This document shows positions 25,958 to 62,544 of a stretch of DNA of 64,000 bases, piece by piece; position 1 is the stretch's first letter; each line of letters opens with the position of its first letter. Both the position numbers and the translations under genes were made by a program. Source of the DNA: a virus. Its lineage: Duplodnaviria; Heunggongvirae; Uroviricota; Caudoviricetes. The notes under the pieces are model-generated. The model saw nothing but the letters and a program-made list of their open reading frames with translations. It did no database searches and was not told where the DNA came from. The stretch lies in IMG/VR virus record IMGVR_UViG_3300035698_011431, positions 1-64,000 of that record. One strand, 5' to 3'.

Positions 25958-26053
25958 ACACTAGAATGTGGAGATGAGGGGTCTTGAACCCCTTGCCGAC
26001 AAGTCTTGGAAACCCGAGCACCACCATGGCATCCCCACATCCTAGTGTTTTTT
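25958..26053. ncRNA. long GC-rich hairpin H1 (18-bp closing stem with G-U-compatible mismatches) with T-runs on both sides; interior carries a T-arm-like AGGGG-TTCAAGA-CCCCT on the minus strand
   Basis: CACTAGAATGTGG...CCACATCCTAGTG then TTTTTTT. Confidence 0.4.
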
Positions 26054-35021: not shown

Positions 35022-35199
35022 ATTAGAGTTTTATGGAGTAGTGGCGGAATAGTAGACGCATATATGAAGCGGATTCCAGTATAGTTACACTGTGGCGCAA
35101 CGGTAGCGCTTAGGGGTTTTCCCCTGCGGTTGTAGGTTCGAGTCCTACCAGTATGTAACATGCAAGGTCTTGTCCTTGCCTACTCCATTAAGCTCTAAT
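35022..35199 (+). ncRNA. tRNA-like structured element B: long terminal stem ATTAGAG..GGAGTAG / CTACTCC..CTCTAAT, A-type D-arm and T-arm modules, and a nested second cloverleaf-like insert (D-arm GCGC-AACGGTA-GCGC, T-arm GTAGG-TTCGAGT-CCTAC)
   Basis: read directly; anticodon-equivalent region of inner unit is a 4-nt-loop hairpin AGGGG-TTTT-CCCCT. Confidence 0.45.
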
Positions 35200-47448: not shown

Positions 47449-48292
47449 AATTTACATGACCTGTGGCTTACCTGCAAGTGGGAAAAGTACATGGGCGAAA
47501 CAATATATAAAGGAGAATCCTAACACTAAAATCGTAAATAAAGATTCTTTTAGGGCAATGTTAGATAATGGAAAATGGTCAAAGGGAAATGAAAAGTTTG
47601 TTTTAGAAGTTAGGGATTTAATAATAATCGCAGCATTAAAACAAGGTAAAGATATTATAGTAGACGATACTAATTTTAATATTGTTCACTTGAAAAGAAT
47701 AGAAGAAATAGCAGAAAAGCATAATGCAGAGGTGGAAATAAAAGATAGTTTTTTGGATATTCCATTGGATGAATGTATTGAGAGAGATAAGAAAAGAGAA
47801 GGCAGTGTTGGGGAAAAAGTTATTCGAGGGATGTATGACAAATATTTAAAGGAAAAGGATTATGTAAGACAAGACAAAGAATTATCAAAGGCTGTTGTCT
47901 TTGACGTCGATGGGACTTTAACTACAGGTCCTAAAGACAGAAGTCCCTATGAATGGAGTAAGGTTGGACAAGACGAACTATGTCAAGAAGTATATAATGC
48001 GTATAAGCTATACAAAGAAGCTGGATATAAAATAATAATCTTTACAGGACGTGATGGGTGTTGTGAAAAGGAGACAAAGGAATGGTTAAAAAAATATAAT
48101 ATAGAGTATGATTATTTTGATATTAGACCATTGGGAAACGCCGAAAACGATGCTATAATAAAGGAAAGGATGGTAAAGGAAATCTTAGATAAATATTACA
48201 TAGAAGTGGTTTTCGATGACAGAAATCGTGTTTGTAAAAAATGGCGTCAGCTAGGATTCAAATGTTATCAAGTGGCGTGTGGGGATTTTTAA
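47441..48292 (+). CDS. polynucleotide 5'-kinase / 3'-phosphatase (T4 PseT-like)
   Basis: P-loop GLPASGKST at N-terminus; HAD phosphatase motif VVFDVDGTLT in C-terminal half. Confidence 0.85.
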   Translation: MSKIYMTCGLPASGKSTWAKQYIKENPNTKIVNKDSFRAMLDNGKWSKGNEKFVLEVRDLIIIAALKQGKDIIVDDTNFNIVHLKRIEEIAEKHNAEVEIKDSFLDIPLDECIERDKKREGSVGEKVIRGMYDKYLKEKDYVRQDKELSKAVVFDVDGTLTTGPKDRSPYEWSKVGQDELCQEVYNAYKLYKEAGYKIIIFTGRDGCCEKETKEWLKKYNIEYDYFDIRPLGNAENDAIIKERMVKEILDKYYIEVVFDDRNRVCKKWRQLGFKCYQVACGDF

Positions 48293-48302
48293 GAATATTT
48301 AA

Positions 48303-49430
48303 ATGACTATGAAAAGAAAATTAGCTAGTATACAAATAATCGAGTCTTTGGAAGAAATCCCTAATGCAGATAGGATTGAAGTTGCAACTGTTTTGGGATG
48401 GCATTTAGTAGTAAAGAAAGGACAGTTCGAGGTTGGGGATAAATGTGTATATTTTGAAACTGATTCTCTCCTTCCGATAAAAAAAGAGTTTGAGTTTTTG
48501 GCAAAAGATGGGACAAAGAAAATAATTGGAGATGATAATAAAGAATATGAAGGATATCGGCTGAAAACTATAAAGTTGAGAAAACAAATATCTAGTGGCT
48601 TGGCATTATCGCTAAATGAATTAAAGGTAAAGGGGAGCGAAGGGGATGATCTAACAAAAGAGTTAGGGATAATAAAATATGAAGCATTGTCTATTGGAAC
48701 AAATGTTTCAAGTAAAAGACCGGTAGTTTTTCCAAAGTGGATTCCAAAAGGGATAGGGGTTTTTATTAAAAGACATTTTCCTAAGACTGCACGAAAATTG
48801 TGGGGAAAGTCTTTGAGAAGTTTTCCTTCTTATATAGAGAAAACAGATGAAATAAGAATACAAGGTTCTCCTAAGATATTAGAACGACATAAGGATAAAA
48901 AGTTTTATGTAACAGAGAAATTGGATGGTTCTAGTGTTACGATATTTAGGGAAAAGGATAAAACTCAAGTTTGTAGTAGAAAGGTATGGCTTCCAAGGGA
49001 AGACGGCAATCAGTTTTGGGATGCGGTAACTAAGATTGAGGATAAGTTAAATGATTTGGAAGATATAGCATTACAGGGGGAATTAGTAGGGGTAGGGATT
49101 CAAAAGAACCCATTAAAAATGAAGGATAGAAAGATATATTTCTTTAATGCGTATGATTATCAAAAAGGAGAATATCTTAATTTCAAAGAATTCCAGGGAC
49201 TAATAACTAGGCTTGGATTAGAAACTGTTCCTATAATAGAAACAAGTTATAGGCTTCCAGAAACAATTGATGAAATGGTAGAGTATAGTACAAGGAAATC
49301 GACAATAGCAAAAGAAGAGTGGGCAGAAGGATTAGTATTTAGATCTTTAGAAGAAACTCAAGATCAAAGGATTGGTAGGTTAAGTTTTAAATGTATAAAC
49401 CCTAGCTTTCTTCTAGCACATGGGGATTAA
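48303..49430 (+). CDS. second ATP-dependent polynucleotide ligase (KxDG nucleotidyltransferase; RNA ligase candidate) with N-terminal OB-like domain
   Basis: motif I TEKLDGSSV, downstream ligase-like motifs; family assignment uncertain. Confidence 0.5.
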   Translation: MTMKRKLASIQIIESLEEIPNADRIEVATVLGWHLVVKKGQFEVGDKCVYFETDSLLPIKKEFEFLAKDGTKKIIGDDNKEYEGYRLKTIKLRKQISSGLALSLNELKVKGSEGDDLTKELGIIKYEALSIGTNVSSKRPVVFPKWIPKGIGVFIKRHFPKTARKLWGKSLRSFPSYIEKTDEIRIQGSPKILERHKDKKFYVTEKLDGSSVTIFREKDKTQVCSRKVWLPREDGNQFWDAVTKIEDKLNDLEDIALQGELVGVGIQKNPLKMKDRKIYFFNAYDYQKGEYLNFKEFQGLITRLGLETVPIIETSYRLPETIDEMVEYSTRKSTIAKEEWAEGLVFRSLEETQDQRIGRLSFKCINPSFLLAHGD

Positions 49431-50255: not shown

Positions 50256-50771
50256 ATGGAAATAAAAAACATACCAATAGAAGAAATCAATGTAATAGGA
50301 GATAATCCTAGAGAGTTATCAGATGAAAGATTTGAAGCTCTAAAAAAGTATGCCAAGAAATATGGTTTGCTTACTCCATTAGTAGTAGACAAGAGAAGCA
50401 ATAGTTTAATCGGAGGACATTCAAGATTATTAGCTATTAAAGAGCTAGGATGGAAAGAAGTACCTTGTAATATGGTAGAGCCAAAAGACGATTCAGAAAG
50501 GAAAGAAATGCAGTTAATAGACAATGAACAGTTTGGACATTGGATAGAAGATGAGTTGGTAGTTTTCGTTAAAGACACTGGAATAATACTAGAAGACTAC
50601 GAAATACAAACAGATAGTATTAGTTTAGATGAAATAGTTAATGGGGAGGACGTAGATATAGATGATTTCTTCAGGGAGAAAACAGACGAAGAGAAAGAAA
50701 AGGAAAGGGAGGAAGAACAAGAAAAAAAAGAAATTAAATGTCCCAAATGTGGATTTTTATTTGAAAGATGA
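50256..50771 (+). CDS. ParB/Srx-fold nuclease-domain protein with C-terminal Zn-ribbon (DpdB-like partner of DpdA?)
   Basis: IGDNPRELSDERFEALKKYAKKYGLLTPLVVDKRSNSLIGGHSRLLAIKELG fits ParB N-terminal domain; CPKCG at end. Confidence 0.6.
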   Translation: MEIKNIPIEEINVIGDNPRELSDERFEALKKYAKKYGLLTPLVVDKRSNSLIGGHSRLLAIKELGWKEVPCNMVEPKDDSERKEMQLIDNEQFGHWIEDELVVFVKDTGIILEDYEIQTDSISLDEIVNGEDVDIDDFFREKTDEEKEKEREEEQEKKEIKCPKCGFLFER

Positions 50772-51676
50772 AAATATTTTTAGCAAATACTTATTCGTCT
50801 TGGAGGGGGGATATATTAGAGAATTATATGAAAATTTATTTAGCGGGGACACTTACAGGGAATAATAGTTATATTTACCGAGATATGAATGTACATTTAG
50901 TTGATTTAAAAAGAATAAAAAAAGACATGGAAATTTTTATAGCGAGAGGGAATTGCGGGTGGATGACTGGGAAAGAGATAAAATTCAATGATTTTCTCGA
51001 TATATATATACTTGAGAGTTTTTTCTATTTAGATGATTGGATGAAGGTCTTAATAAAAAAGAAGGTGTTTAAAAGGTTTTTATTGGATAGCGGAGCATTT
51101 ACGTTCATGACAGGGGTTGGTGGGGAAGTAAACTGGGAGGAATATGTTGATAAATATGCAAAATTCATAAAAGAATATGATGTAGAATTATTCTTTGAAC
51201 TAGACATTGATTCAGTTGTAGGGTTGAAGAAGGTTGAAGAGCTCCGAGGAAGGTTGGAAGAGAAATCGGGAAAAAGGTGTATCCCTGTTTGGCATAAATC
51301 AAGAGGGAAGGAGTACTTTATAAAAATGTGCGAAGAATATAATTATGTAGCAATAGGGGGGATAGTTACTAAGGAAATAACAGGGAGAGAACATAAGCAT
51401 TTCCCCTGGCTAATAGATATAGCTCATCAAAATAATGCTAAGATTCATGGATTAGGATATACAAACTTAAAAGGATTAAAGAAGTATCATTTCGATTCGG
51501 TAGATTCAACTGCATGGATATATGGGAACAGGGGAGGGTATTTATATAAATTTACAGGCAACACTTTAAAGCAAATACAGTCACCGGAGGGGCTTAGATT
51601 AAAAGGGAGAGAAGCGGCTATACATAATTTTCAAGAATGGATAAAATTTCAAAAATACGCAGATAAAAATTTATAA
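50768..51676 (+). CDS. dpdA: tRNA-guanine-transglycosylase-like protein, DpdA-type DNA 7-deazaguanine transglycosylase (putative)
   Basis: LLDSGAFTF resembles the catalytic TDSGGFQ of TGT; placed between ParB-like and queDEC-folE. Confidence 0.55.
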   Translation: MKIFLANTYSSWRGDILENYMKIYLAGTLTGNNSYIYRDMNVHLVDLKRIKKDMEIFIARGNCGWMTGKEIKFNDFLDIYILESFFYLDDWMKVLIKKKVFKRFLLDSGAFTFMTGVGGEVNWEEYVDKYAKFIKEYDVELFFELDIDSVVGLKKVEELRGRLEEKSGKRCIPVWHKSRGKEYFIKMCEEYNYVAIGGIVTKEITGREHKHFPWLIDIAHQNNAKIHGLGYTNLKGLKKYHFDSVDSTAWIYGNRGGYLYKFTGNTLKQIQSPEGLRLKGREAAIHNFQEWIKFQKYADKNL

Positions 51677-51681
51677 AAACT

Positions 51682-52026
51682 ATGTATAAACTAAAATACG
51701 AAACACAATTCGCAGCAGCTCACCAATTAAAGACAGCTTATTCAAAGGAATGTAATGACTTTTTACATGGGCATAATTGGGAAGTAATTGCTGAAATAGA
51801 GACTAAAGAGCTTGTTAATGATATGGTAATAGACTTTAAAAAATTAAAAGAAATTATTCATAAGTTAGATCATAAAAACTTAGTAGATATATTACCATTT
51901 CAAACAACAGCAGAAAACATAGCAAAGTATCTACATAACGAAATAAAAAAAGAAGTTAAACAAGAGTCTAAGGTTACAATTAAATTATGGGAGGCAGAAA
52001 AGTCTTGCATAGAATATTATGTTTAA
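51682..52026 (+). CDS. queD: 6-carboxy-5,6,7,8-tetrahydropterin synthase
   Basis: 114 aa; CNDFLHGHNWEV (Cys-x3-HGH) signature. Confidence 0.8.
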   Translation: MYKLKYETQFAAAHQLKTAYSKECNDFLHGHNWEVIAEIETKELVNDMVIDFKKLKEIIHKLDHKNLVDILPFQTTAENIAKYLHNEIKKEVKQESKVTIKLWEAEKSCIEYYV

Positions 52027-52921
52027 AGAAGGAAAGGATAATATTAACTATAAAGACGGCAAAACAAAGATGTTAAAGGATAAATTGGAAAACATTGACA
52101 ATTGCCTATTATGTGGGTCTGAGTTCTACTTACTTGTTCATCATCTTGATGGGAATCATGGTAATAACGTAGATGAAAACTTAAAAGTTATGTGTCATCA
52201 GTGTCATGATGTGATTCATCAAAAAGGTTTAAATTTTCACAACAAAAAATGGAAGATAAAAACAAGCGAGGATTTTTTGTCTATACAAGGAGAAGGGGTA
52301 ACGTGTGGGACACCTTCTCTTTTTATTAGGTTATTTGGGTGTACAACAAATTGCCCTTGGTGTGATACGAATTATTCTAAGGGTGATAATGCGTATAAAG
52401 AATACAATTATAAAGAGATAGCGAATTTAATCATTTGTTATGCCAAAAAGAGTTCTATAAGAAATTTAGTAATAACAGGGGGAGAGCCTTTGGAACAATC
52501 TGTCCAGCCTTTGATTATGATAGCGAAACTCTTAGGGTATAGGATAGAGATAGAAACTAACGGCAAGCCAATAGCAGATGGGAATAAATTCATATTACCC
52601 TCTTTTGTTGACCAGTTTAATATTTCACCTAAGTTATGGAGTAAAGAAAAAGTAAGGACATTTAGAAAAGATAGGATAAAAAAATTAATGCAAGTAAATT
52701 CTATTTTTAAATTTGTAGTAAAAACAAGCGAGGATTTTAGGATAGTAGAAGAAATGATAAAGAGAGGGGTTGATAAAGAGAGGGTATGGCTTATGCCACT
52801 AACGGGAGATAAGGATGAAAAAAAGACAATGGGGGTTGTTTGGGATTATTGTGTAAAAAATAAACTTAAGTTTTCGGCTCGGATACATTATTTATTATTC
52901 GGTAACAAAAGAAACATATGA
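52019..52921 (+). CDS. queE: 7-carboxy-7-deazaguanine synthase (radical SAM) with an N-terminal Cys/His-rich HNH-like extension
   Basis: FGCTTNCPWCDT radical-SAM cluster motif; extra N-terminal LCGSE...HHLDGNHGNN...CHQCHDVIH segment. Confidence 0.7.
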   Translation: MFKEGKDNINYKDGKTKMLKDKLENIDNCLLCGSEFYLLVHHLDGNHGNNVDENLKVMCHQCHDVIHQKGLNFHNKKWKIKTSEDFLSIQGEGVTCGTPSLFIRLFGCTTNCPWCDTNYSKGDNAYKEYNYKEIANLIICYAKKSSIRNLVITGGEPLEQSVQPLIMIAKLLGYRIEIETNGKPIADGNKFILPSFVDQFNISPKLWSKEKVRTFRKDRIKKLMQVNSIFKFVVKTSEDFRIVEEMIKRGVDKERVWLMPLTGDKDEKKTMGVVWDYCVKNKLKFSARIHYLLFGNKRNI

Positions 52922-53571
52922 AAACAATTGTAGTATTAAGCGGAGGATTAGATTCAACAACAGTATTATATAATCTTCTAGATAGAAAACATGAAGTAAA
53001 GGCTATATCTTTTGATTATGGGCAAAGACATAAAAAGGAATTAGATTATGCTAAACAGACAACGGATAAATTGGGGATAGAACATGAGGTCATTGATATG
53101 GCTTTTATGAAGAAATATATAAGCAATTCGGCTTTAACAGGTGATATAGAAGTACCAGAAGGGCATTACGAGGATGAGAACATGAAACAAACAGTAGTAC
53201 CGAATAGAAACATGATAATGGCGAGTATAGCGATAGGTTATGCAGTTAATATTGATTATGATGGAGTAGCGTTGGGAGTTCATTTAGGAGATCATGAAGT
53301 TTATCCAGACTGTAGGCCAGAATTTATTTATGCGTTAAAGGTTATTGCTTTAGTATCCAATTACAAAAAGATAAGGATTATAACTCCATATTTATATGTA
53401 TGTAAAGATGGGATAGTAAAAGACGGAATTAGATTAAAGGCAGATTATTCAAAGACATGGACATGTTATAAAGGAGGTGATCTTGCTTGTGGTAAATGTG
53501 GATCATGTCAAGAGAGGCTAGAAGCGTTTAATGATAATAATATTAAAGATCCAATCGAATATGACAAATGA
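52918..53571 (+). CDS. queC: 7-cyano-7-deazaguanine (preQ0) synthase
   Basis: PP-loop [11 protein letters not shown]; C-terminal zinc motif [11 protein letters not shown]. Confidence 0.85.
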
Positions 53572-54403
53572 AATAAAATGGTTAAAGGAAAAGATAGGTA
53601 AGAAAAAGGTTTACGGAATACCTAAAGGAGGATTGATTGTAGCTGGGTTAGCAGGTTTAAACATAGTAGAGACTCCAGAAGAGGCGGAGATAATAGTTGA
53701 TGATTTAATTGATAGTGGGGAAACAATAAAAAAGTATATAGGGAAGAAGGAGATTTATGTATTATATGTAAAACCACATTCCCCTTATAGGGATAAGATA
53801 AATTACTTTAAGGAGGAAGAAGGATGGGTAGAATTTTGGTGGGAGGATAAAGAAAAAGATCAGAAGGATTTAGTTATAAGGGAATTAGAATACATAGGGG
53901 AGAATCCAAAGAGAGAGGGGTTATTAGATACTCCAAATAGGGTAATCAAATCGTGGAATAAATTGTATGAAGGATATAAAACAAATCCAGATGATATTTT
54001 AACGGTCTTTACTAATGAATCAAAGATAGATCAAATAGTGGGATTATCAAACATAGAATTTTATTCAACATGTGAACATCACTTATTGCCGTTTTTTGGG
54101 AAAGCTCATATTTATTACATTCCAAATAAAAAAGGAAAGATTGTAGGAATAAGTAAACTTGCGAGAATAGTTGACATATATGCTAGACGGTTACAGAATC
54201 AAGAAAGGTTGTCAAAACAAATAGCAGATCTAATTGAAGAGAAGTTAGAACCAAAGGGAACGGCGGTAATATTAGAAGCTCAACATTTTTGCATGAAAGC
54301 TCGAGGAGTAGAGAAGGAAAATGCTATAATGAAAACATCTGATTTGAGGGGAGCATTTAGAAAAAATGAAAAGGCTCGCATGGAATTATTCCAATTAATA
54401 TAA
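53561..54403 (+). CDS. folE: GTP cyclohydrolase I (FolE), with ~100-aa N-terminal extension carrying a PRTase-like [10 protein letters not shown] motif
   Basis: [10 protein letters not shown]...[20 protein letters not shown]...RRLQNQERL are FolE hallmarks; alternative upstream start at 53531 in ORF track. Confidence 0.8.
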
Positions 54404-55255: not shown

Positions 55256-55687
55256 ATGGCAAATGAAGAAAACCTAATACAAAATACAGATCGAAGCCGA
55301 GAGGAAGCCGAAGAGTTGAGTAGAAAAGGTGGTATAAGTTCAGGGGAGGTAAGGAAAGAGAAGAAAGCATTTAAAGATAGTATCTCGAAAGTTTTAGAAG
55401 TGCTAGGGAATAAGGTATCCAAAGGCATAGAAGATGAAGAAGTTAAAAAGCTTATAAAAGAAGAAGGGTATGATGTTTATAAGGCGGTATTGTTATTGAA
55501 TAGTCAAGATGCCTCTGTAACGGAATTAGTATCATTAATGAAACTATTATGGGGGTATAAACATGGGATGCCAGAACAATATATAAAACAAGATACAACT
55601 ATAATAGAAAGGAAGAAAGTAGGGGATTTATTCCCAGAGGATGAAGAATTAAAGGAGCCGGATGAGGATAATAAACCCAAACCTTAA
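55256..55687 (+). CDS. putative terminase small subunit
   Basis: 143 aa, charged helical protein overlapping start of large terminase. Confidence 0.35.
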   Translation: MANEENLIQNTDRSREEAEELSRKGGISSGEVRKEKKAFKDSISKVLEVLGNKVSKGIEDEEVKKLIKEEGYDVYKAVLLLNSQDASVTELVSLMKLLWGYKHGMPEQYIKQDTTIIERKKVGDLFPEDEELKEPDEDNKPKP

Positions 55688-56870
55688 ACAATTAGTAACA
55701 AGTTATAAAGATCCTGAAGTAAATGGATGTGTATTAGAAGGAGGAAGTCGAAGTGGAAAGACCTGGAGTAGTATAGACTTCCTCATATGGCTATGCTCTA
55801 AACACGAAACAAAATCAACTATTCATATAGTAAAGGAAACATACAACTCTTTTAAGACAACAATCTTTGATGATTTAAAGAGAAGACTTCCAATGTATGG
55901 GATAATTGATAGCCCCTTTGGAAGGATAGAAAACATTTCACGATATAATTTATTTGGGAATGAGATACATTTCTTAGGAGCGGATAGTTCAAGCACAGCA
56001 TTAGGGTCAGGTTGTGATTATTTATGGGCAAATGAAACACTTGATATTGCTAAGACTGTATTAGATCAAAAGGAAATGCGTTGTAGGAAGTTCTGGTGGT
56101 ATGATTATAACCCTAAAGAATTAGAACATCATATCTATACGATGGCTGATAATAGGAAGGATGTTAACTTCTTATTAACAACGATGCTAGATAATCCTCA
56201 TATTACAAAGAATGAAAAGAGGAAGATATTGGGATATGAAGCTACTGAACAGAATATAAAGGAGGGAACAGCGGATGCATACTTATGGAATGTTTATGGT
56301 AGGGGGGAGAGAACACAATTAGAAGGAGCGGTATTTATTAACTGGGAGAGTATTACTGAAATCCCAGAGGATGCGAAACTCCTTGGGTATGGATTGGACT
56401 TTGGATATACAAATGATCCAACTACATTAAGTGCTTTATATTTATATAACAATGAAATTTATACAAAGGAATTAATATATGAGACAGGGTTAACTAATCC
56501 AGATATTGCAAGGAAATTAATTGCTTTAGAGATAGACAAAAGCATTCCTATTTATGCAGATTCTGCAGAACCGAAAAGTATTCAGGAAATATATGAGTTT
56601 GGTTTTAATATCATGCCGGTAAAGAAGGGGGCGGATTCGATAAAGTTTGGAATAGATGTAATGAAACAATATAAAATAAACATAACAGCGGATTCAATAA
56701 ATGGAATCAAGGAATTAAGGAATTATAAATGGTTGCAAGACAAAGAAGGGAAGAGTTTAAACAAACCAGTAGACTCATTTAATCACTTTCTAGATGCATT
56801 AAGGTACTCTGTAATGATGTTATTATCAAAGCAGGATGAAACAACTCCAACAGAAATAAGATTCATGTAA
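55662..56870 (+). CDS. terminase large subunit (PBSX/Terminase_3-like)
   Basis: Walker A LEGGSRSGKTWS; C-terminal nuclease-like GLDFGYTNDPTT. Confidence 0.8.
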   Translation: MRIINPNLKQLVTSYKDPEVNGCVLEGGSRSGKTWSSIDFLIWLCSKHETKSTIHIVKETYNSFKTTIFDDLKRRLPMYGIIDSPFGRIENISRYNLFGNEIHFLGADSSSTALGSGCDYLWANETLDIAKTVLDQKEMRCRKFWWYDYNPKELEHHIYTMADNRKDVNFLLTTMLDNPHITKNEKRKILGYEATEQNIKEGTADAYLWNVYGRGERTQLEGAVFINWESITEIPEDAKLLGYGLDFGYTNDPTTLSALYLYNNEIYTKELIYETGLTNPDIARKLIALEIDKSIPIYADSAEPKSIQEIYEFGFNIMPVKKGADSIKFGIDVMKQYKINITADSINGIKELRNYKWLQDKEGKSLNKPVDSFNHFLDALRYSVMMLLSKQDETTPTEIRFM

Positions 56871-56876
56871 TTAATT

Positions 56877-57140
56877 ATGAGAAAGAAAAGGACTCTTTGC
56901 ATAGCAGAGATCAATGAAATGAAATACAAAATAGGACAACATTTAGAATATATAAAAGAAGGATTTAGAGGGTGGGATGGTTACGTAGAATCATATGAGA
57001 ATGATAGGTATGTTTTAAAAAGAGGCTTTGCAATTATAGGCGGATTGGAGGAGAAATATTTAATTCCATATAAAGGGAAAAAGGAGAAAGAGGGGTTAAC
57101 ATTTAAAGATTTAGTAGAGGGTTACAATAGTATGATTTGA
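56877..57140 (+). CDS. hypothetical protein
   Basis: 87-aa ORF. Confidence 0.3.
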   Translation: MRKKRTLCIAEINEMKYKIGQHLEYIKEGFRGWDGYVESYENDRYVLKRGFAIIGGLEEKYLIPYKGKKEKEGLTFKDLVEGYNSMI

Positions 57141-57265
57141 CACAAAAACACAATAGATTATAATAAGGATAAATAATAATCAATTAAGAGGTTGTAATAT
57201 ATCGGTTACTTCTTTTGATGAAACCACCGCTATTAATTCTCACCTCATAATTGATTGTTATCAGT

Positions 57266-57393
57266 AAAAGGGTTGCAATATAACAGTTACTTCAAATTTT
57301 TTGTCGTTGGTTCAATTCCAACCTTTGACTTCGGTCAAGGTAGCTCAGTGGTAGAGCAAAAATCAAGACTCTGTTATAAATTTTTACCCTTTT
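57266..57393 (+). ncRNA. circularly permuted tRNA-like RNA (YrlA-type Y RNA candidate)
   Basis: Module order: T-arm GTTGG-TTCAATT-CCAAC, acceptor-like hairpin CTTTGAC-TTCG-GTCAAGG, then TA, then D-arm GCTC-AGTGGTA-GAGC. The flanks pair: AAAAT/ATTTT, CTGTT/AACAG and AAAAGGG/CCCTTTT. It lies 50 nt upstream of the TROVE protein gene. Confidence 0.5.
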
Positions 57394-57441
57394 ATTGGTA
57401 GTTATGACTGTAATCATCTTCCTCCATTAATCAATAAAAAA

Positions 57442-58845
57442 ATGAGTAAATTTAATGAAAAGACAAAAGGATCAATGAAAATCGTAAATAAGGCTGGTGG
57501 TAGTGCATATAGTCATACTGCTGAGATGGAATTGGTAGTTAGTGTTCTAACTACTTTTTTAAATAACAAGTTTTATGAAAGTGGAGATGAAAGGACTGAG
57601 AGGATAAAAGGGTTAATCCAAAAAGTTGATCCAGAATTTGTAGCAAAATTGGCTATAGTTGCAAGGAAAGAATTTCACTTAAGGAGTGTTTCACATTTAT
57701 TAGTAGGTGAATTATCAAAGAGACAAGAAGCTTCTCCATATATAAGGAAGGCCATTTTAAGTATTACTCAAAGACCGGATGACTTAACTGAATTGGTTGG
57801 ATATCTTGACGGGAAACTCTCAAAGCAAGTTAAAAGAGGGGTAAGAAGGTCTTTATATAAATTCAATAGATATCAATTAGCAAAATATAAGCAAGAAGGA
57901 AGGAAGGTGAAGTTGGTTGATTTGTTTAACTTAGTACATCCTAAACCTGAATTTGCAACTGAGGAACAAAAGAGAGCGTGGAAGGATTTAATTAAGGGGG
58001 ACTTGAAGAGTACGGAAACATGGGAGAGTCAAATGTCTAGTGGTAAGGATAAAAAAGAGGTGTGGAAAGATTTGATAATGGAAGAGAAGTTGGGATATAT
58101 GGCATTATTAAGGAATCTAAGGAACATAGATCAATGGGCTTCAAGTGAAGTTAAAAAGAAAGCATGCGAGATGATTTCAAATAGAGAGATAGTTAAAAAA
58201 TCAAAACAATTACCATTTAGATTTTATTCGGCATATCAGAATGTAGAGAATCAGGATATGTTAGAAGCTATTAATCAAGCATTAGAATATTCAACAGATA
58301 ATATCCCTAAGTTTGAAGGAAAAACATTAATAGCAGTTGATGGGAGTGGTTCAATGATGGGAGATCCAATTGAAAAATCAAGTGTTTTAGCTAGTGCATT
58401 AATTAAATCAAATGATGCTGATGTTGTTTTATATGATGAAAGGATTAGAGAATTCAAATACTTAAGGAGTGAGCCAGCATTAACAATGTCTCAAAGGATA
58501 CAAAACGAATGTATTGGAGGTGGAACTAATACTAGTCAGGTATTTGAATATGCAAATCAAAAAGAAAAAAAATATGATAGAATTATTATCTTGTCGGATA
58601 AAGAAAGTTGGCAGGATTCGGATAGCTTATGGAGAGTAAAGGGAACACAAACAACCTATAATGCGTATCGAAAAATAAATGATTGTTTTGTTTATGCGAT
58701 TGATATTGAAGGATATGGAACAAAAGACATTACAAGCCCCAAGGTATTCCATTTAGCGGGATTCTCGGATAGAATTTTTGATTTCATAAAATGGATAGAA
58801 AAGGAAAATCAAATTGTTGATTATATAAACAAGATCGAACTATAA
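57442..58845 (+). CDS. rsr: Ro60/Rsr-like protein (TROVE domain + vWA domain with MIDAS)
   Basis: The N-terminus NKAGGSAYSHTAEMELVVSVLTTFLNNKFYESGDERTE parallels the Ro60 TROVE start. The C-terminal vWA domain has the MIDAS motif LIAVDGSGSM. Confidence 0.6.
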   Translation: MSKFNEKTKGSMKIVNKAGGSAYSHTAEMELVVSVLTTFLNNKFYESGDERTERIKGLIQKVDPEFVAKLAIVARKEFHLRSVSHLLVGELSKRQEASPYIRKAILSITQRPDDLTELVGYLDGKLSKQVKRGVRRSLYKFNRYQLAKYKQEGRKVKLVDLFNLVHPKPEFATEEQKRAWKDLIKGDLKSTETWESQMSSGKDKKEVWKDLIMEEKLGYMALLRNLRNIDQWASSEVKKKACEMISNREIVKKSKQLPFRFYSAYQNVENQDMLEAINQALEYSTDNIPKFEGKTLIAVDGSGSMMGDPIEKSSVLASALIKSNDADVVLYDERIREFKYLRSEPALTMSQRIQNECIGGGTNTSQVFEYANQKEKKYDRIIILSDKESWQDSDSLWRVKGTQTTYNAYRKINDCFVYAIDIEGYGTKDITSPKVFHLAGFSDRIFDFIKWIEKENQIVDYINKIEL

Positions 58846-59049
58846 GACATGAAAAGAAGGGCACACATATATATAGACATAGAACTTTGGAAGAAATTTA
58901 AGATCAAATTAATAAAGCAAGGCAAGACGGTATCAAGATGGGTGGAAGAGTCTATAAAGGCTTTTTTGGGAGAATAAAACTTATGAAGGTCGCACAGAAA
59001 CAACGTGTTCATAAGATTATTGTAAAATTATAAGTAGCTAATTAAAACG

Positions 59050-59625
59050 ATGAGCGAAATTACATTAAAAAAAGGGGATGACATAACCCTTAAAAAAGAA
59101 GACATGTCTCCAGTTAAGAACCTGATTGCAGGTATTGGTTGGGATTCAAAAGATGATAAAGATGTTGATGTTGATTTATGGATTGTTCCTAAGGAGGTAA
59201 CAAATGCAAAGAAAGATATTTTGTTTTTCCAAAGTGAACAAGAAAATAGTGATGGAAAGAAAATGATTCCTGGAATGGTTCATAGTGGAGATGACTTAAC
59301 AGGAAATGTTTCAGAAGATGGATGTGATGAAATGGTTCATATCAAGGGAGAAGAGTTAGATCAAAAAGAATATCTTGTTGTTGCAAATGTTTATTCAGGA
59401 GATGTATTTGGAACAATTGAAAGATGTTTTGCTGAAATGATTGATCAGGATACTCAAAAAAGTCTAGCTAAGTTTGACATGAGTGGAGAAGGGGGAGATA
59501 ACAAAACATTAGTTGTTGGTAAGATCACAGTTGGAGATGATAAGGCTCTTAGCTTCAAGGCTATAGGAGATTATTCAAAATTGACTTGTGATAATATTGT
59601 TAACAACCCTAGCGAACTATTTTAG
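59050..59625 (+). CDS. TerD-family (tellurite-resistance/Ca-binding) protein
   Basis: 191 aa; ITLKKGDDITLKK...GIGWDSKDDKDVDVDLW pattern typical of TerD domain. Confidence 0.6.
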   Translation: MSEITLKKGDDITLKKEDMSPVKNLIAGIGWDSKDDKDVDVDLWIVPKEVTNAKKDILFFQSEQENSDGKKMIPGMVHSGDDLTGNVSEDGCDEMVHIKGEELDQKEYLVVANVYSGDVFGTIERCFAEMIDQDTQKSLAKFDMSGEGGDNKTLVVGKITVGDDKALSFKAIGDYSKLTCDNIVNNPSELF

Positions 59626-59675
59626 TTTGACTCACAGCCTCGTCGACCCGAGGTTGTTGTTAATTTAAAACAAGA

Positions 59676-60686
59676 ATGATAATAGCCATCGTAATATTAC
59701 TGATTTCCTTTTATTTATTAGCAAAGATTTGTGATAATTATTTTGTTGATTCATTAGAGAAGATAGCCGACAAATTAAAGTTATCTTCAGATGCAGCAGG
59801 GGCAACTTTGATGGCAATCGGATCAAGTGCACCGGAATTGTTTATATCTATAATTGCATTACTAAAAGGGGGAGGGCATGAGATTATTGGGATAAGCACT
59901 ATAATAGGATCATCTTTATTTAATTTGTTAGTAATTATAGGGATTGTAGCTTTTGTTAAGAAGGCAAAGTTAGTGAAACAACCAGTTATTAGAGACATGA
60001 TCTTTTATGCGTTGGGAGTTATTGTGTTAATAGCAGTAATTATAAATGGATCTATAGGGCTTGTGGAGGCATTAGTATTACTAGCGTTATATCTTGTATA
60101 TGTATATTCAGTTGTTAAATGGCGTAAGTGGTTTCCTTATCAAGACAACGGGAAAGGGGAAGAAGAAGAAAAGATAGGAATGACAGGGATGAATAAAGTT
60201 TTAAGTCATGTTTTTCCAAATAAAAAGAGATATGTACTGACATTTATATTATCTATATTATGGATTGCTTTATTAAGTTGGGGATTAGTTGAAAGTGCTA
60301 TAATGATTGCATATAGATTAAACATTTCCGAGATGATTGTAGCTTTAATTATAGTAGCTATTGGAACATCTATTCCGGACATGATGGGATCTATAATTGC
60401 AGCAAAGAGAGGGAATGTGGATATGGCAGTGAGTAACGCAATAGGCTCAAATGTCTTTGATATATTCTTTGGGTTAGGATTACCATATACAATATGCCTT
60501 ATGTTGGGAGGGAAGATAGCTGTAGATAGTAATAACATCTTAATGGTAGCAATCTATTTAATAGGGACTATAATTATTACGTTATGTCTGTTAAAATTCA
60601 GGAAATGGGTATTAGATAAGAAGACGGGGATAATCATGATAGGATTATATGTAATTTGTTTAATATTATTATTAATTAATCAATAA
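59676..60686 (+). CDS. Ca2+/cation antiporter (CaCA, YrbG-like Na+/Ca2+ exchanger)
   Basis: two alpha-repeats GSSAPELFISIIA and GTSIPDMMGSIIAAKRG; ~10 TM segments. Confidence 0.75.
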   Translation: MIIAIVILLISFYLLAKICDNYFVDSLEKIADKLKLSSDAAGATLMAIGSSAPELFISIIALLKGGGHEIIGISTIIGSSLFNLLVIIGIVAFVKKAKLVKQPVIRDMIFYALGVIVLIAVIINGSIGLVEALVLLALYLVYVYSVVKWRKWFPYQDNGKGEEEEKIGMTGMNKVLSHVFPNKKRYVLTFILSILWIALLSWGLVESAIMIAYRLNISEMIVALIIVAIGTSIPDMMGSIIAAKRGNVDMAVSNAIGSNVFDIFFGLGLPYTICLMLGGKIAVDSNNILMVAIYLIGTIIITLCLLKFRKWVLDKKTGIIMIGLYVICLILLLINQ

Positions 60687-61896
60687 AATGATGTTTATTA
60701 TAGGGTTTGTAGTAGGAATCGTTGTTGGGGCTTATGCTCATAAGACAATAAAAGGATTCATAAATAAGGCAGGGAAAAAGATTGATGAAGTTTCAACTGA
60801 TTCAAGTGAAAAGAAATAAATTATTATTAACATAAAGAAGATGGAAGAAAAAAATAAAATAGATAAAAGTTTGGATAATATAATATCCAAAATAGATTCT
60901 AAGTTTGAGTCAGTAGAAGAGTTAGCAAAGACCGTTGGATCAAGAGCAAAAGGGAAGGTAAAGAAAGTAGTAACTCATATAAAGAAACATAAGAAGACCT
61001 ATATCACATTAGCTGGAGTAGCTTATGGAGTGCATTGGTTATTAAAAGAAGATTAATTAATATAAATCATGACAATATATCCTGAATATTGTGCTTTATT
61101 GGTAGTTTTTATTGTTTGTATTGTTATAGTTGTAAAGGAGGTTGTAAGACATTGGAGCGTTGATAGTGAATTAAGAGAAGCGATTCATGACTGGGAAGAT
61201 GATGAGTGTCATCGATATGATGTTTGTAAAGACTGTTCAAGATATAATGAATATGAGGACGAGTGTAGAAGGAGTAGCCCCTGTATAAAATGGAAGGATT
61301 GGAAGGCTAAAGAATTAGGGATTAAGGAGAAAGAAACAAAGGAAATTAAAAATATTAAATCTAAAAAGAAAATGAAAATACCAAAAATATATAGGATAAT
61401 TCTTTGGGGAATAGTAGTTAAGTTGCTATGGAATTTAACCAGTCTATTAATAAATTACTTAGAAACATTAGTATGATAATCGATATATTAATAATAGTAT
61501 TTATAGTATTTGGTGGAATAGCATGTTGGGGTTTAAGTGATTATGTTAAGGACTTAAGTGATGGGATAGAAGAGAAGTTTTGGGGAGACCATTCCGGTTT
61601 CTTGTATATAGGAGTGTGTAGCTCCCTCTCAATAATTATAATTCTAGGTTGGTGGGCATATGTAATAGAAGCTAATAAATACGAGAAAGTGAAGGAATAC
61701 GAAATACAAGGGCATATGGAGAAACATGGGGATCATTTCGTAGTAGACATGAAGGGAGATACCAATAAGGTTATAGAGGGTGACATTGATTGCGATACTA
61801 TCGAATATGAATACACAAAAGAAGAGCAGAAAGTAGTAATAAAGCAGAATGAATATAAGGACATCCGTGGTTGTAAGAAAGTAATAATATATGTAA

Positions 61897-62544
61897 ATGA
61901 TTAAACCAATTCTAAGTATAGACGACTTTAACTTAGGAAACATAGATCTAGCAAAGACAATACAGTCTTATGGACTACAAGAGAACACTATCTTTTTTAT
62001 TGAGTTAATGGGAAAGAGAGTAGACACAACGGGGAAGACAAAAGAAGAGTTAATAGATCCGGCGAATAAAGTACAAATAGAGAAATTAAACGAGATGGGT
62101 TTCGAGGTTTTTAGCCATAATATTTGGCACGATAATAGCTTGAAAGAAAGGATTCATAAAGAACAGTTTAACCAAATATTTAGAAGTAAAGAGATCTTAG
62201 AGGATTTAACGGGGAAGGAATGTACTTGGTATTGTCCAAATCGTGGTCGCTACAACGAACAAATATTAAACATAATAAAAGATGCAGGATACAAATACAT
62301 TAGAACAACAAAAGTATTTGACATAGAGCCAATAAAGGAAGGGATTAATCATACGAGTTTGCATTGTTTTGAAAGATCAGAATATGAAGGGGTTGATTGG
62401 TTAGAAGTAGGGAAGGGATTAATTGATAAGGTGAATAAGGAAGGCGGGTGTTTTAAAATGTGGGCTCACTGCAAAGAACTCTCAAGACCAGGAGAGATGG
62501 ATAAATTTAAAGAAATATTAAAACATGTCAAAGATAACGAATAA
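61897..62544 (+). CDS. hypothetical protein (possible polysaccharide-deacetylase-like fold; weak)
   Basis: 215 aa; HSHNIWHD motif only. Confidence 0.2.
   Translation: MIKPILSIDDFNLGNIDLAKTIQSYGLQENTIFFIELMGKRVDTTGKTKEELIDPANKVQIEKLNEMGFEVFSHNIWHDNSLKERIHKEQFNQIFRSKEILEDLTGKECTWYCPNRGRYNEQILNIIKDAGYKYIRTTKVFDIEPIKEGINHTSLHCFERSEYEGVDWLEVGKGLIDKVNKEGGCFKMWAHCKELSRPGEMDKFKEILKHVKDNE

What the first reader, a model, noticed from the sequence alone, without database searches (positions are those of the whole stretch)
57186..58845. Phage-encoded Ro60/Rsr with an adjacent circularly permuted tRNA-like RNA (Y RNA / YrlA-type candidate)
The 467-aa protein at 57442-58845 opens with a Ro60-like TROVE start (NKAGGSAYSH...FLNNKFYESGDER) and carries a vWA domain with an intact MIDAS motif (DGSGSM). 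Fifty nt upstream lies an element with exact tRNA geometry, but permuted. The order is T-arm GTTGG-TTCAATT-CCAAC, then an acceptor-like helix closed by a UUCG tetraloop (CTTTGAC-TTCG-GTCAAGG), then the canonical 'TA', then D-arm GCTC-AGTGGTA-GAGC. The two ends of the element (AAAAT/ATTTT, then CTGTT/AACAG, then AAAAGGG/CCCTTTT) pair into a long interrupted stem at the position where a tRNA anticodon stem would be. As I recall, this is the architecture described for bacterial YrlA Y RNAs that bind Rsr and are encoded next to rsr. A second hairpin (CAATTAAGAGGT.../...ACCTCATAATTG, 57186-57262) sits just upstream and repeats a 23-nt motif (GGTTGYAATATAWCRGTTACTTC) of the first, hinting at a two-RNA locus like yrlB-yrlA. 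Together with the RNA-repair cassette 9 kb upstream this suggests a phage-borne Ro RNP/RNA-surveillance module.
Basis: partly seen in the sequence, partly recalled or inferred. Interest (0 to 1): 0.85.

Follow-up and report, generated by a model that had tools for sequence, protein, structure and literature searches.

The report
Phage Ro60 gene with Y RNAs
An uncultivated tailed phage carries a Ro60/Rsr RNA-binding protein gene preceded by two small structured RNAs, one of them a tRNA mimic; the call is correct, but phage loci of this kind have been described since 2014.

Summary
ORF 57442-58845 is a full-length Ro60/Rsr protein: Pfam TROVE E=2.8e-28, a Ro60-type vWA domain with an intact MIDAS motif, and Thermus phage phiLo Ro60 as the best solved relative. 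At 57266-57393 lies a YrlA-type Y RNA. Its order is T-arm, 7-bp acceptor-like hairpin with a UUCG loop, UA, D-arm, all closed by a long interrupted 5'/3' stem. It scores Rfam YrlA E=3.8e-6 over the whole window, but below the gathering score. The upstream hairpin (57181-57254) is a second Y-like RNA. A covariance model trained only on hairpins next to rsr in other phages ranks it first in the 64-kb window (27.8 bits). It is conserved and covaries across 42 elements from 20 related loci. A perfect sigma-70 promoter (57137-57164) precedes both RNAs and rsr. Phage Ro60 genes with adjacent Y RNAs are already published (Chen 2014; Hu 2025), so this is a new member of a known kind. Both RNAs lack the CGAA motif. 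No synteny links the locus to the RNA-repair cassette.

The parts
57137..57164 (+). Perfect sigma-70 consensus promoter (TTGACA, 16-nt spacer, TATAAT). The predicted start is near 57171, about 10-15 nt before the first RNA. The -35 box overlaps the stop codon of the upstream 87-aa ORF.
   Evidence: 12 of 12 hexamer matches, the only full match in 56700-59200. No terminator-like site lies between it and rsr; the one listed at 57306 is the T-arm.
57181..57254 (+). Y RNA-like hairpin 1 (YrlB-like). It has a terminal stem, a bulged helix, an internal loop, an 8-bp stem, UUAC, and a short UUC/GAA hairpin with a U-rich 7-nt loop. It has no tRNA-like domain. The core is 57186-57248.
   Evidence: Fold of -18 kcal/mol, z=-2.66. 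Model R1, built only from non-window elements next to rsr, places it first in the whole window: 27.8 bits, E=6.3e-5, next hit 10.8 bits. It fits the family alignment.
57190..57212 (+). Conserved 5'-strand block of hairpin 1 (GGUUGUAAUAUAUCGGUUACUUC). This is the candidate Rsr-binding side of the stem plus the UUAC (YUAY) motif.
   Evidence: pattern, 2 hits against 0.00 expected. (G9, G21 and UACUUC invariant in 42 elements).
57266..57393 (+). YrlA-type Y RNA: a long interrupted terminal stem closing a tRNA-like domain in the order T-arm, acceptor-like hairpin, D-arm.
   Evidence: Rfam YrlA 42.8 bits, E=3.8e-6 window-wide. RNAfold -34.1 kcal/mol, z=-4.64. Relatives carry YrlA matches next to rsr.
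57271..57293 (+). Conserved 5'-strand block of the YrlA-type RNA (GGUUGCAAUAUAACAGUUACUUC), 20/23 identical to the block in hairpin 1. One difference, G57204 versus A57285, is compensated on the 3' strand (G-C versus A-U).
57306..57322 (+). T-arm: a 5-bp stem with loop UUCAAUU (U54, U55, C56, A57 and A58 equivalents).
57323..57340 (+). Acceptor-stem mimic: 7 bp closed by a UUCG tetraloop, stacked directly on the T-stem.
57341..57357 (+). UA (U8 and A9 equivalents) plus the D-arm GCUC-AGUGGUA-GAGC (A14, G15, G18 and G19 equivalents). G15 can form the Levitt pair with C57305.
   Evidence: The feature list is from PMC4201824.
57393..57429 (+). Possible third, degenerate Y-like element. It has only the basal bulged helix (UAUUGG-U-AG-UUA ... 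CU-CCAUUA) and no UACUUC. It ends 12 nt before the rsr ATG. This part is tentative.
   Evidence: Model R1 with filters off: 16.4 bits, E=0.018 over 14 kb. In relatives a full element ends 11-31 nt before the ATG.
57442..58845 (+). rsr: a Ro60/Rsr orthologue of 467 aa with a TROVE HEAT-repeat ring domain and a C-terminal vWA domain carrying a complete MIDAS motif (D300-x-S302-x-S304, T362, D386).
   Evidence: Best solved relative 9KOP/9L5Y, Thermus phage phiLo Ro60, E=6e-24 over residues 18-454. The start codon and N-terminus are conserved in relatives of 61-63% identity.

Best explanation
This is a self-contained phage Ro60 (Rsr)/Y RNA cassette.

A consensus sigma-70 promoter at 57137-57164 most likely drives one transcript. 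It carries, in order, a hairpin Y RNA (57181-57254), a YrlA-type tRNA-mimic Y RNA (57266-57393), a possible degenerate third stem, and the rsr coding sequence.

The two RNAs are probably cut out of the leader by host RNases. Each then binds the outer surface of the ring-shaped Rsr protein through the module they share. That module is a terminal helix with a one-nucleotide 5' bulge, an internal loop at the position of the published CGAA motif, an 8-9 bp stem, and UUAC.

The variable distal domains are a tRNA-like fold on one RNA and a short U-rich hairpin on the other. They would then act as tethers or gates that connect Rsr to host factors. The most likely partner is the host 3'-5' exoribonuclease PNPase, by analogy with Deinococcus, Salmonella and Thermus phage phiLo. 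The effect would be to redirect or dampen host RNA decay during infection.

Shown here: the identity of the protein, the fold and family membership of both RNAs, conservation and covariation of the shared module, and the promoter match.

Inferred only: co-transcription and processing, Rsr binding, the PNPase partner, and any benefit to the phage.
For: Protein. TROVE plus Ro60-type vWA domains. Full-length match to PHROG 850. Full-length match to the solved phage Ro60 9KOP/9L5Y. The three phiRo60 basic residues K141, K142 and R178 align with K131, R132 and K168; K142 and R178 gave the largest binding defects when mutated.

YrlA-type RNA. Rfam E=3.8e-6 window-wide, on the same strand, 49 nt upstream of rsr. 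This satisfies the published operational criteria of best covariance-model match, E<5e-5, within 4 kb and on the same strand (PMC4201824), though with the Rfam model rather than the authors' own. The tRNA geometry and tertiary-pair nucleotides are present.

Second RNA. A model trained without the window ranks it first in 64 kb. The same model finds same-strand hairpins next to rsr in loci never used for training, including Xanthomonas phage Tenjo and a 635-kb megaphage.

Shared module. In 42 elements from 20 loci, 90.3% of cells pair, against 47-53% when partners are slid. There are 240 double-sided changes against 24-53 slid, and 0 of 500 shuffles reach the observed values. G9, G21 and UACUUC are invariant.

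Linkage to rsr. A blind scan of IMG/VR with a stricter version of the RNA motif returned 120 loci. Of these, 31 carry a TROVE gene, and 41 of their 42 motif copies are on the gene's strand.

Cassette autonomy. None of the window's rsr neighbours recurs beside rsr elsewhere.

Transcription and folding. The promoter matches 12 of 12 positions and no terminator precedes rsr. The whole leader folds into two independent domains, z=-5.17.

Precedents. In M. smegmatis, YrlA and YrlB are processed from one precursor upstream of rsr. phiLo Ro60 binds two upstream Y-like RNAs and forms a complex with host PNPase that attenuates its nuclease activity.
Against: - There is no expression or binding data for this locus, and the host is unknown.
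- The YrlA match is below Rfam's gathering score (42.8 against 69).
- Both RNAs lack the CGAA/GNCGAAN0-1G motif. At the equivalent position they read UGUAAU and UGCAAU. For phiLo Ro60, each CGAA substitution cost 3-4-fold in affinity.
- Several phiRo60 RNA-contact residues (R137, R163, R169, R173) are not conserved in register.
- The family alignment used for pair counts was anchored on predicted pairing, which inflates the percentage paired.
- The PNPase partner is argued purely by analogy.
Confidence: 0.8

Rival explanations
1. The structures act mainly in cis. They would be leader elements of the rsr mRNA to which Rsr binds to regulate its own translation or stability, rather than stable trans-acting Y RNAs. 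This is not exclusive of the main explanation.
For: No terminator lies between the RNAs and rsr, and there is one strong promoter upstream. A basal-helix-only element ends 12 nt before the ATG. In 12 of 14 relatives with upstream RNAs, the last element ends 11-31 nt before the ATG. There is no Shine-Dalgarno sequence before the ATG.
Against: In the L002, L022, L024 and L090 type loci, elements with the same module lie downstream of rsr. In L033 they are divergent from rsr. Neither arrangement can act as a leader. Characterised homologues in Salmonella, M. smegmatis and phiLo are stable RNAs or bind Ro60 in trans. The third element is statistically weak (E=0.018).
Confidence: 0.15
2. The tRNA-like RNA works independently of Rsr as a decoy or substrate mimic for host tRNA-directed enzymes or defence nucleases. 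It would act alongside the phage's other tRNA mimics and its RNA-repair genes.
For: The phage encodes Rnl1, Pnkp and a second RNA ligase. It also carries a cloverleaf whose anticodon loop is replaced by a UUUU tetraloop at 35086-35156 and a tmRNA-TLD-like element at 25966-26036. Bacterial YrlA RNAs are substrates of TruB, DusA, RNase P and the CCA-adding enzyme (PMC4201824).
Against: The element has no anticodon stem-loop, which is the target of known anticodon nucleases. Its position is instead the conserved stem shared with the non-tRNA-like hairpin. The element type is tightly and specifically linked to rsr across phages. No repair gene is syntenic with it.
Confidence: 0.07
3. The tRNA-like element is a remnant of tRNA genes (the T-arm of one gene and the D-arm of the next, or a decayed permuted tRNA), and the upstream hairpin is a chance structure or a DNA-level repeat such as a protein-binding site.
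For: The Rfam tRNA model gives weak partial matches at 57264-57330 (20.7 bits) and 57334-57396 (16.1 bits). The phage has tRNA genes elsewhere. Chen et al. warn that tandem tRNAs can mimic YrlA.
Against: Both partial tRNA matches are below the tRNA gathering score of 29, and ARAGORN finds no tRNA here. Only a 4-nt UUCG loop joins the two acceptor strands, so two gene ends cannot fit. The same architecture recurs next to rsr in many unrelated phages. RNA-level compensatory changes are extensive, and strand bias is 41 of 42, which argues against DNA sites. The hairpin is a significant match to an independently trained model.
Confidence: 0.02

Closest known systems
Bacterial Rsr with YrlA and YrlB (Salmonella Typhimurium, Mycobacterium smegmatis; Chen et al. 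2014, PMC4201824; Rfam RF02553)
   Same: A Ro60 orthologue with, on the same strand and within a few hundred nt, one tRNA-mimic Y RNA (T, acceptor-like and D arms closed by a 5'/3' stem, with YUAY before the distal domain) and a second hairpin Y RNA that shares the protein-binding stem. As in M. smegmatis, the RNAs lie upstream of rsr.
   Different: The score is below the Rfam gathering score. The GNCGAAN0-1G motif is degenerate (UGCAAU and UGUAAU). There is no V arm in the window's YrlA. There are no adjacent rtcB/rtcA genes and no RtcR/sigma-54 control, as there are in Salmonella; a sigma-70 consensus promoter is present instead. The carrier is a phage, and the protein is short at 467 aa.
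Thermus phage phiLo Ro60 with Yrl1 and Yrl2 (Hu et al. 2025, PMC12135203; PDB 9KOP, 9L5Y)
   Same: A phage-encoded Ro60 with two Y-like RNAs immediately upstream, each a stem, internal loop and stem. It is the closest solved structure by sequence (E=6e-24, residues 18-454). The MIDAS motif is conserved, as are the basic residues K141, K142 and R178; K142 and R178 gave the largest binding defects.
   Different: The phiLo RNAs were found through their CGAA motifs, and the paper does not describe a tRNA-like domain. The window has a full tRNA-like domain on one RNA and no CGAA on either. Whether the window's RNP binds PNPase is untested.
Mycobacteriophage Ro60 genes with YrlA-like RNAs (Pedulla 2003 as cited in, and Chen 2014, PMC4201824: 22 bacteriophages)
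   Same: The same kind of cassette in tailed phages, and this is what establishes the kind as already described.
   Different: The phage lineage is unrelated. No DNA match was found in 50,697 phage records, and protein identity to any deposited phage is below 40%.
Deinococcus radiodurans Rsr, Yrn1 and PNPase (the RYPER complex) and metazoan Ro60 with Y RNAs
   Same: A ring protein bound to the stem formed by the RNA's 5' and 3' ends, and a helix with a single bulged nucleotide on the 5' strand next to the contacted bases. The distal RNA module is proposed to act as a tether.
   Different: Sequence similarity to X. laevis Ro60 is marginal (E=0.0065). The sequences of the binding helices are not alignable, and no functional data exist here.

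Membership tests
Ro60 / Rsr protein family | TROVE (HEAT-repeat ring) domain | tested here: met
   Pfam PF05731 at 99.7 bits against a cut-off of 23, E=2.8e-28. PHROG 850 over the full length, E=2.2e-45.
Ro60 / Rsr protein family | C-terminal Ro60-type vWA domain with a MIDAS motif (DxSxS...T...D) | tested here: met
   PF25045 at 28.5 bits against a cut-off of 27.7. D300-G-S302-G-S304, T362 and D386 align with DVSGSM, GT and TD of 9KOP and are invariant in close relatives.
Ro60 / Rsr protein family | Closed ring fold with a central cavity and an outer Y RNA-binding surface | not tested
   Only sequence homology over residues 18-454 to the solved phage Ro60 (E=6e-24). No structure prediction was run.
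Ro60 / Rsr protein family | Conserved basic residues that contact the Y RNA stem (phiRo60 R137, K141, K142, R163, R169, R173, R178) | tested here: inconclusive
   K141, K142 and R178 align with K131, R132 and K168. R137, R163, R169 and R173 align with S, G, V and N, with basic residues one or two positions away.
YrlA Y RNA (Rfam RF02553; Chen 2014) | tRNA-like domain in the order T-arm, acceptor-like stem-loop, U8-A9, D-arm, with T-loop and D-loop consensus nucleotides and a Levitt pair | tested here: met
   57306-57357. T-loop UUCAAUU, D-loop AGUGGUA, 7-bp stem with UUCG loop, UA, G15:C48.
YrlA Y RNA (Rfam RF02553; Chen 2014) | 5' and 3' ends pair into a long interrupted stem where the anticodon arm would be | tested here: met
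   RNAfold MFE and centroid. The stem covaries across relatives.
YrlA Y RNA (Rfam RF02553; Chen 2014) | Best covariance-model match, E<5e-5, within 4 kb of the Ro60 gene and on the same strand (criteria of Chen 2014) | tested here: met
   E=3.8e-6 window-wide and the only YrlA match; it ends 49 nt before rsr on the same strand. The Rfam model was used, not the authors' own.
YrlA Y RNA (Rfam RF02553; Chen 2014) | Score at or above the Rfam gathering threshold (69 bits) | tested here: not met
   42.8 bits. Relatives also score 31-56 bits. The model's alignment of the window's stem is mis-registered compared with its alignment of L002.
YrlA Y RNA (Rfam RF02553; Chen 2014) | GNCGAAN0-1G (CGAA) motif near the 5' end | tested here: not met
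   The positionally equivalent bases are UGCAAU (57274-57279) and, in hairpin 1, UGUAAU (57193-57198). Only 2-3 of the 5 fixed positions are kept. The mapping comes from L002 and L014.
YrlA Y RNA (Rfam RF02553; Chen 2014) | Conserved YUAY preceding the distal (V/T) region | tested here: met
   UUAC at 57287-57290, and at 57206-57209 in hairpin 1. UAC is invariant in 42 elements.
YrlA Y RNA (Rfam RF02553; Chen 2014) | Stable RNA bound by Rsr in vivo that carries tRNA modifications | not testable with these tools
   This needs a Northern blot or RIP and modification mapping.
Second, hairpin-type Y RNA (YrlB / Yrn2-like) | Shares the putative Rsr-binding stem module with the YrlA of the same locus and lacks the tRNA-like domain | tested here: met
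   The 5' blocks are 20/23 identical. Model R1, trained without the window, gives 27.8 bits and E=6.3e-5, the top hit of the window.
Second, hairpin-type Y RNA (YrlB / Yrn2-like) | [quoted passage not shown] | tested here: met
   The apical loop UUUUGAU is 7 nt with 5 U.
Second, hairpin-type Y RNA (YrlB / Yrn2-like) | Sequence homology to Salmonella YrlB | not tested
   No YrlB sequence or model was available. Chen 2014 found YrlB orthologues only within S. enterica.
rsr-yrlBA-rtcBA RNA-repair operon (Salmonella type) | rtcB and rtcA adjacent to rsr and co-transcribed with it, under RtcR/sigma-54 control | tested here: not met
   The neighbours are the terminase large subunit, small ORFs, TerD and a Na/Ca exchanger, with no RtcB or RtcA. 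The promoter is a sigma-70 consensus. ATP-dependent ligases and Pnkp lie 8-11 kb upstream and are not syntenic in relatives.

The most novel reading that the evidence does not exclude
Rsr genes of this almost wholly viral clade are served by arrays of one to five tandem Y RNAs embedded in the rsr leader. All copies share an invariant G...G-W-UACUUC stem module, while the supposedly critical CGAA motif is dispensable, and it is absent from both window copies. The copy abutting the start codon is reduced in this phage to the bare bulged helix at 57393-57429. It may be an operator through which Rsr autoregulates its own translation. If so, this would be a feedback loop not described for any Ro60, and a different RNA recognition code from the one defined on phiLo and Xenopus Ro60.
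Probability: 0.15. Interest if true: 0.5.

Novelty: new member of a known kind. Interest (0 to 1): 0.3.

Why it matters
This adds an example from an uncultivated tailed phage to a known but poorly understood class. What phage Ro60/Y RNA particles do during infection is still open.

The comparative set assembled here could help in three ways:
- It comprises more than 50 rsr loci with unannotated Y RNA arrays, including cultured Xanthomonas phages.
- It gives a sharper definition of the conserved stem module. The terminal helix has a 5' bulge, and G9, G21 and UACUUC are invariant.
- It shows that CGAA is not obligatory, which gives concrete mutants for binding studies.

The finding does not overturn anything and does not open a long-standing question by itself.

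Tried and rejected
1. The default Rfam scan and ARAGORN list nothing at the locus. The element appears only with E-value thresholds.

2. I first read UACUUCG(AA) as the published CGAA motif, because Rfam aligned L001 and L003 that way. I rejected this after comparing the higher-scoring L002 alignment, the exact GGCGAAG in L014, and the published statement that YUAY begins the V loop. The CGAA position is the internal loop next to the basal helix. UAC is the YUAY motif. UUCG...CGAA is the V hairpin.

3. MAFFT on whole hairpins misaligned the 3' halves. A naive pairing search mis-assigned several partners, pairing W1 with W2's 3' strand among others. A first exhaustive fold scan timed out. I replaced these with an anchored, N-padded alignment.

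4. Model R1 cannot span the 73-nt tRNA-like insert, so it does not score the YrlA-type element.

5. The motif as first written had too few fixed bases for a collection scan. A stricter version that excludes window-type variants was used instead.

6. The synteny search for the window's rsr neighbours and for Rnl1, Pnkp and the second ligase in 150 loci found only the window's own fragments.

7. The genome-contig scan gave only three short contigs, so no host could be inferred. There is no megablast match in the phage collection.

8. The supplementary tables of Chen 2014 are not held.

9. No further RNA-family matches were found in 40.5-46.5 kb, next to the repair cassette.

10. NCBIfam gave nothing for Rsr or its small neighbours.
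Full report
CONTEXT. The window is part of a tailed phage. It encodes a major head protein, a head protease, a tape measure protein, a minor tail protein, a DnaB-type helicase and a large terminase at 55662-56870. It has no near-identical DNA in 50,697 deposited phage records. Two short metagenome contigs (L021, L030) are 100% identical fragments of the same phage.

THE PROTEIN. ORF 57442-58845 encodes 467 aa. It matches Pfam TROVE at 99.7 bits (cut-off 23, E=2.8e-28) and the Ro60-specific vWA domain at 28.5 bits (cut-off 27.7). It matches PHROG 850 'RNA-binding protein' over the full length, E=2.2e-45.

Its best relative among solved structures is 9KOP/9L5Y (E=6e-24, residues 18-454). That entry is the Ro60 of Thermus phage phiLo. 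X. laevis Ro60 is a marginal match (E=0.0065).

The MIDAS residues (D300, S302, S304, T362, D386) are present and are invariant in close relatives. Hu et al. tested phiRo60 residues for RNA binding by mutagenesis. K141, K142 and R178 align with K131, R132 and K168 here, and K142 and R178 were the two mutations with the largest defects. R137, R163, R169 and R173 are not conserved in register.

Ro60 homologues occur in 119 deposited phage records, all below 40% identity to this protein.

THE tRNA-LIKE RNA.
- T-arm at 57306-57322, with loop UUCAAUU.
- A 7-bp acceptor-like stem closed by UUCG at 57323-57340, stacked directly on the T-stem.
- UA at 57341-57342.
- D-arm at 57343-57357, with loop AGUGGUA.
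- G15 and C57305 can form the Levitt pair.

RNAfold of 57266-57393 gives this junction closed by an interrupted stem (-34.1 kcal/mol, z=-4.64).

Rfam YrlA matches 57280-57380 at 42.8 bits. When all families are searched over the whole window, only four matches reach E<=0.01, and this is one of them (E=3.8e-6). The score is below the curated gathering score of 69, so strict Rfam membership is not met. It does satisfy the operational criteria of the paper that defined YrlA: best model match, E<5e-5, within 4 kb of the Ro60 gene, and on the same strand (PMC4201824).

ARAGORN finds no tRNA here, and the tRNA model's partial matches are below threshold. A 4-nt loop joining the two acceptor strands leaves no room for two tRNA gene ends.

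THE SECOND HAIRPIN AND THE 23-nt REPEAT. I collected relatives of the protein from viral and metagenome collections, at 28-63% identity. Almost every locus carries one to five same-strand elements that share a 5' block of the form GG-N-RG-YRA-N8-9-G-W-UACUUC. These lie within a few hundred nt upstream of rsr, or in one subgroup just downstream. Usually one copy per locus carries a T/acceptor/D domain and is matched by Rfam YrlA. The others are plain hairpins.

I curated 42 elements from 20 loci. They fit one architecture:
- a terminal helix of 4-6 bp;
- a single bulged nucleotide on the 5' strand;
- two more pairs;
- an internal loop (YRA opposite an A/U-rich stretch ending in UU);
- an 8-9 bp helix ending in an invariant G:C;
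- W-UAC, followed by the variable distal domain.

G9, G21 and UACUUC are invariant across the 42 elements. On the anchored alignment, 90.3% of cells pair, against 47-53% when partners are slid by 1-3 columns. There are 240 cells with a change on both sides, against 24-53 slid. No shuffle out of 500 reaches the observed values. One caveat applies: the 3' blocks were placed using predicted pairing, which favours the structure. Even so, the helices have entirely different sequences between paralogues and remain complementary.

Both window elements fit this architecture. The bulged U is followed by UG:CA in hairpin 1 and UG:UA in the YrlA-type RNA, where relatives have GG:CC or AG:CU. Between the two window copies, the G/A difference at 57204/57285 is compensated (G-C versus A-U).

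TESTS THAT DID NOT USE THE WINDOW FOR TRAINING.
(a) Covariance model R1 was built from 36 non-window elements with the distal domains excised. It ranks 57186-57248 first in the whole window (27.8 bits, E=6.3e-5), and the next hit scores 10.8 bits.
(b) R1 also finds same-strand hairpins beside rsr in loci never used for training. These include three short genome contigs, the 635-kb megaphage LR745206, and Xanthomonas phage Tenjo, where the hairpin lies between two YrlA matches in an unannotated intergenic gap.
(c) A blind scan of IMG/VR used a stricter form of the RNA motif, for which many chance hits are expected. It returned 120 loci. Of these, 31 contain a TROVE gene, and 41 of their 42 motif copies are on the gene's strand. 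The exception (L033) is a genuine divergent array.
(d) The generalised pattern occurs exactly twice in the window, against 0.00 expected.

RELATION TO THE PUBLISHED ARCHITECTURE. What I first called a 'basal module' is the architecture already described for YrlA. The Rfam alignment of the L002 element puts AUGGUGA on the consensus acggCga, the 9-nt helix strand on uuggGgaa, AUAC on CUAc, and the UUCG...CGAA hairpin as an insertion. L014 reads GGCGAAG exactly at that position.

Chen et al. describe a GNCGAAN0-1G motif near the 5' end and a YUAY that 'begins the V loop'. Hu et al. describe a 5'-3' stem flanking an internal bulge that harbours CGAA. So:
- the internal loop next to the bulged helix is the CGAA position;
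- W-UAC is the YUAY motif;
- the short hairpin after it is the V arm.

In the window the CGAA position reads UGUAAU and UGCAAU, so the hallmark motif is not kept. In this clade the G of CGAA is A in about a third of elements. For phiLo Ro60, each CGAA substitution lowers affinity 3-4-fold.

TRANSCRIPTION. A perfect TTGACA-16-TATAAT promoter lies at 57137-57164. No terminator-like site lies between it and rsr. The 281-nt leader folds into two independent domains (z=-5.17). This mirrors M. smegmatis, where YrlA and YrlB are processed from one precursor upstream of rsr. Co-transcription and processing are inferred here, not shown.

With filters off, R1 reports a weak third match at 57393-57429 (16.4 bits, E=0.018). 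It is the bulged basal helix alone and ends 12 nt before the ATG. In most relatives a full element ends 11-31 nt before the ATG.

THE RNA-REPAIR LINK. An Rnl1-type ligase, Pnkp and a second RNA ligase are at 46405-49430. They are separated from rsr by a ParB-like gene, a DpdA/QueC/QueD/QueE/FolE cluster and the terminase. None of the window's rsr neighbours, and none of the repair genes, recurs in any relative locus within the flanks held. The conserved unit is therefore the Y RNAs plus rsr. Any cooperation with RNA repair is a same-genome co-occurrence of the sort already noted for jumbo phages.

MECHANISM AND VERDICT. The most likely function is a Ro60/Y RNA particle. Both RNAs would bind Rsr through the shared stem, and their distal domains would recruit or gate host factors. 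The best-precedented partner is PNPase. Only identity, fold, conservation and linkage are shown here. Binding, processing and the partner are inferences.

The kind has been published for phages since 2014, with structure and biochemistry added in 2025. This is therefore a new member of a known kind, of modest interest.

Noticed in passing
window 35086-35156 (+): A tRNA-like gene that scores above the Rfam tRNA gathering score (40.3 bits). Its 6-bp 'anticodon' stem is closed by a UUUU tetraloop, and ARAGORN reports a 2-nt 'anticodon'. It cannot decode and may be another tRNA mimic.
   Followed up: partly
window 25966-26036 (-): A partial match to the tmRNA model (25.3 bits, E=2.7e-6, below the gathering score of 47). 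It folds into a 12-bp terminal stem with a T-arm GGGG-UUCAAGA-CCCC. It lies on the opposite strand to the flanking ORFs, and ARAGORN does not call it.
   Followed up: partly
window 57393-57429 (+): A mini-hairpin that reproduces only the bulged basal helix of the Y RNAs and ends 12 nt before the rsr start codon. It could be a degenerate third copy or a cis operator. The rsr start has an A-rich leader and no Shine-Dalgarno sequence.
   Followed up: partly
window 46405-49430 (+): An RNA-repair set: an Rnl1-type ligase, a Pnkp kinase-phosphatase, and a second RNA ligase with a PHA02142 OB-fold. It is not syntenic with rsr in any relative examined.
   Followed up: partly
window 50256-54403 (+): A 7-deazaguanine cluster made up of a ParB-N-like protein, a DpdA-like transglycosylase (PHROG 887), QueD, a radical-SAM QueE-like protein, QueC and GTP cyclohydrolase I. 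This suggests modified phage DNA.
   Followed up: no
window 58849-62544 (+): Downstream of rsr are a 42-aa ORF starting 4 nt after the rsr stop (no family match), then TerD, a Na/Ca exchanger family membrane protein and a polysaccharide deacetylase. This looks like a run of auxiliary, moron-like genes after the terminase.
   Followed up: no
L006 1925-2483; L158 (Xanthomonas phage Tenjo LR743531.1) 841-1409: Y RNA arrays can be large. L006 has five tandem elements upstream of rsr. In cultured Xanthomonas phage Tenjo, the unannotated gap before the Ro60 gene holds two YrlA matches with a hairpin element between them. None of these RNAs is annotated in the GenBank records.
   Followed up: partly
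L157 (Microcystis phage Mvi-JY20) 1391-3361; L159 (phage csAssE-Sib) 1166-1384: In more distant phages the Ro60 gene is flanked by ordinary tRNA genes (tRNA-Leu upstream and Gln, Arg and Met downstream; tRNA-Tyr and Lys upstream), with no Rfam YrlA match at E<=0.01.
   Followed up: no
L033 340-620: This is the one locus where the Y RNA elements, including a T-arm, are on the strand opposite to the TROVE gene, which suggests divergent transcription.
   Followed up: no
L153, L154, L155 (genome contigs): The only hits to this Rsr clade in 185,579 reference genomes are three contigs of 2.4-3.4 kb, from Nitrolancea hollandica, a Saccharibacteria MAG and an Aenigmarchaeota MAG. Each has Y-like hairpins upstream. 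They are probably phage or prophage fragments binned with the genomes.
   Followed up: no
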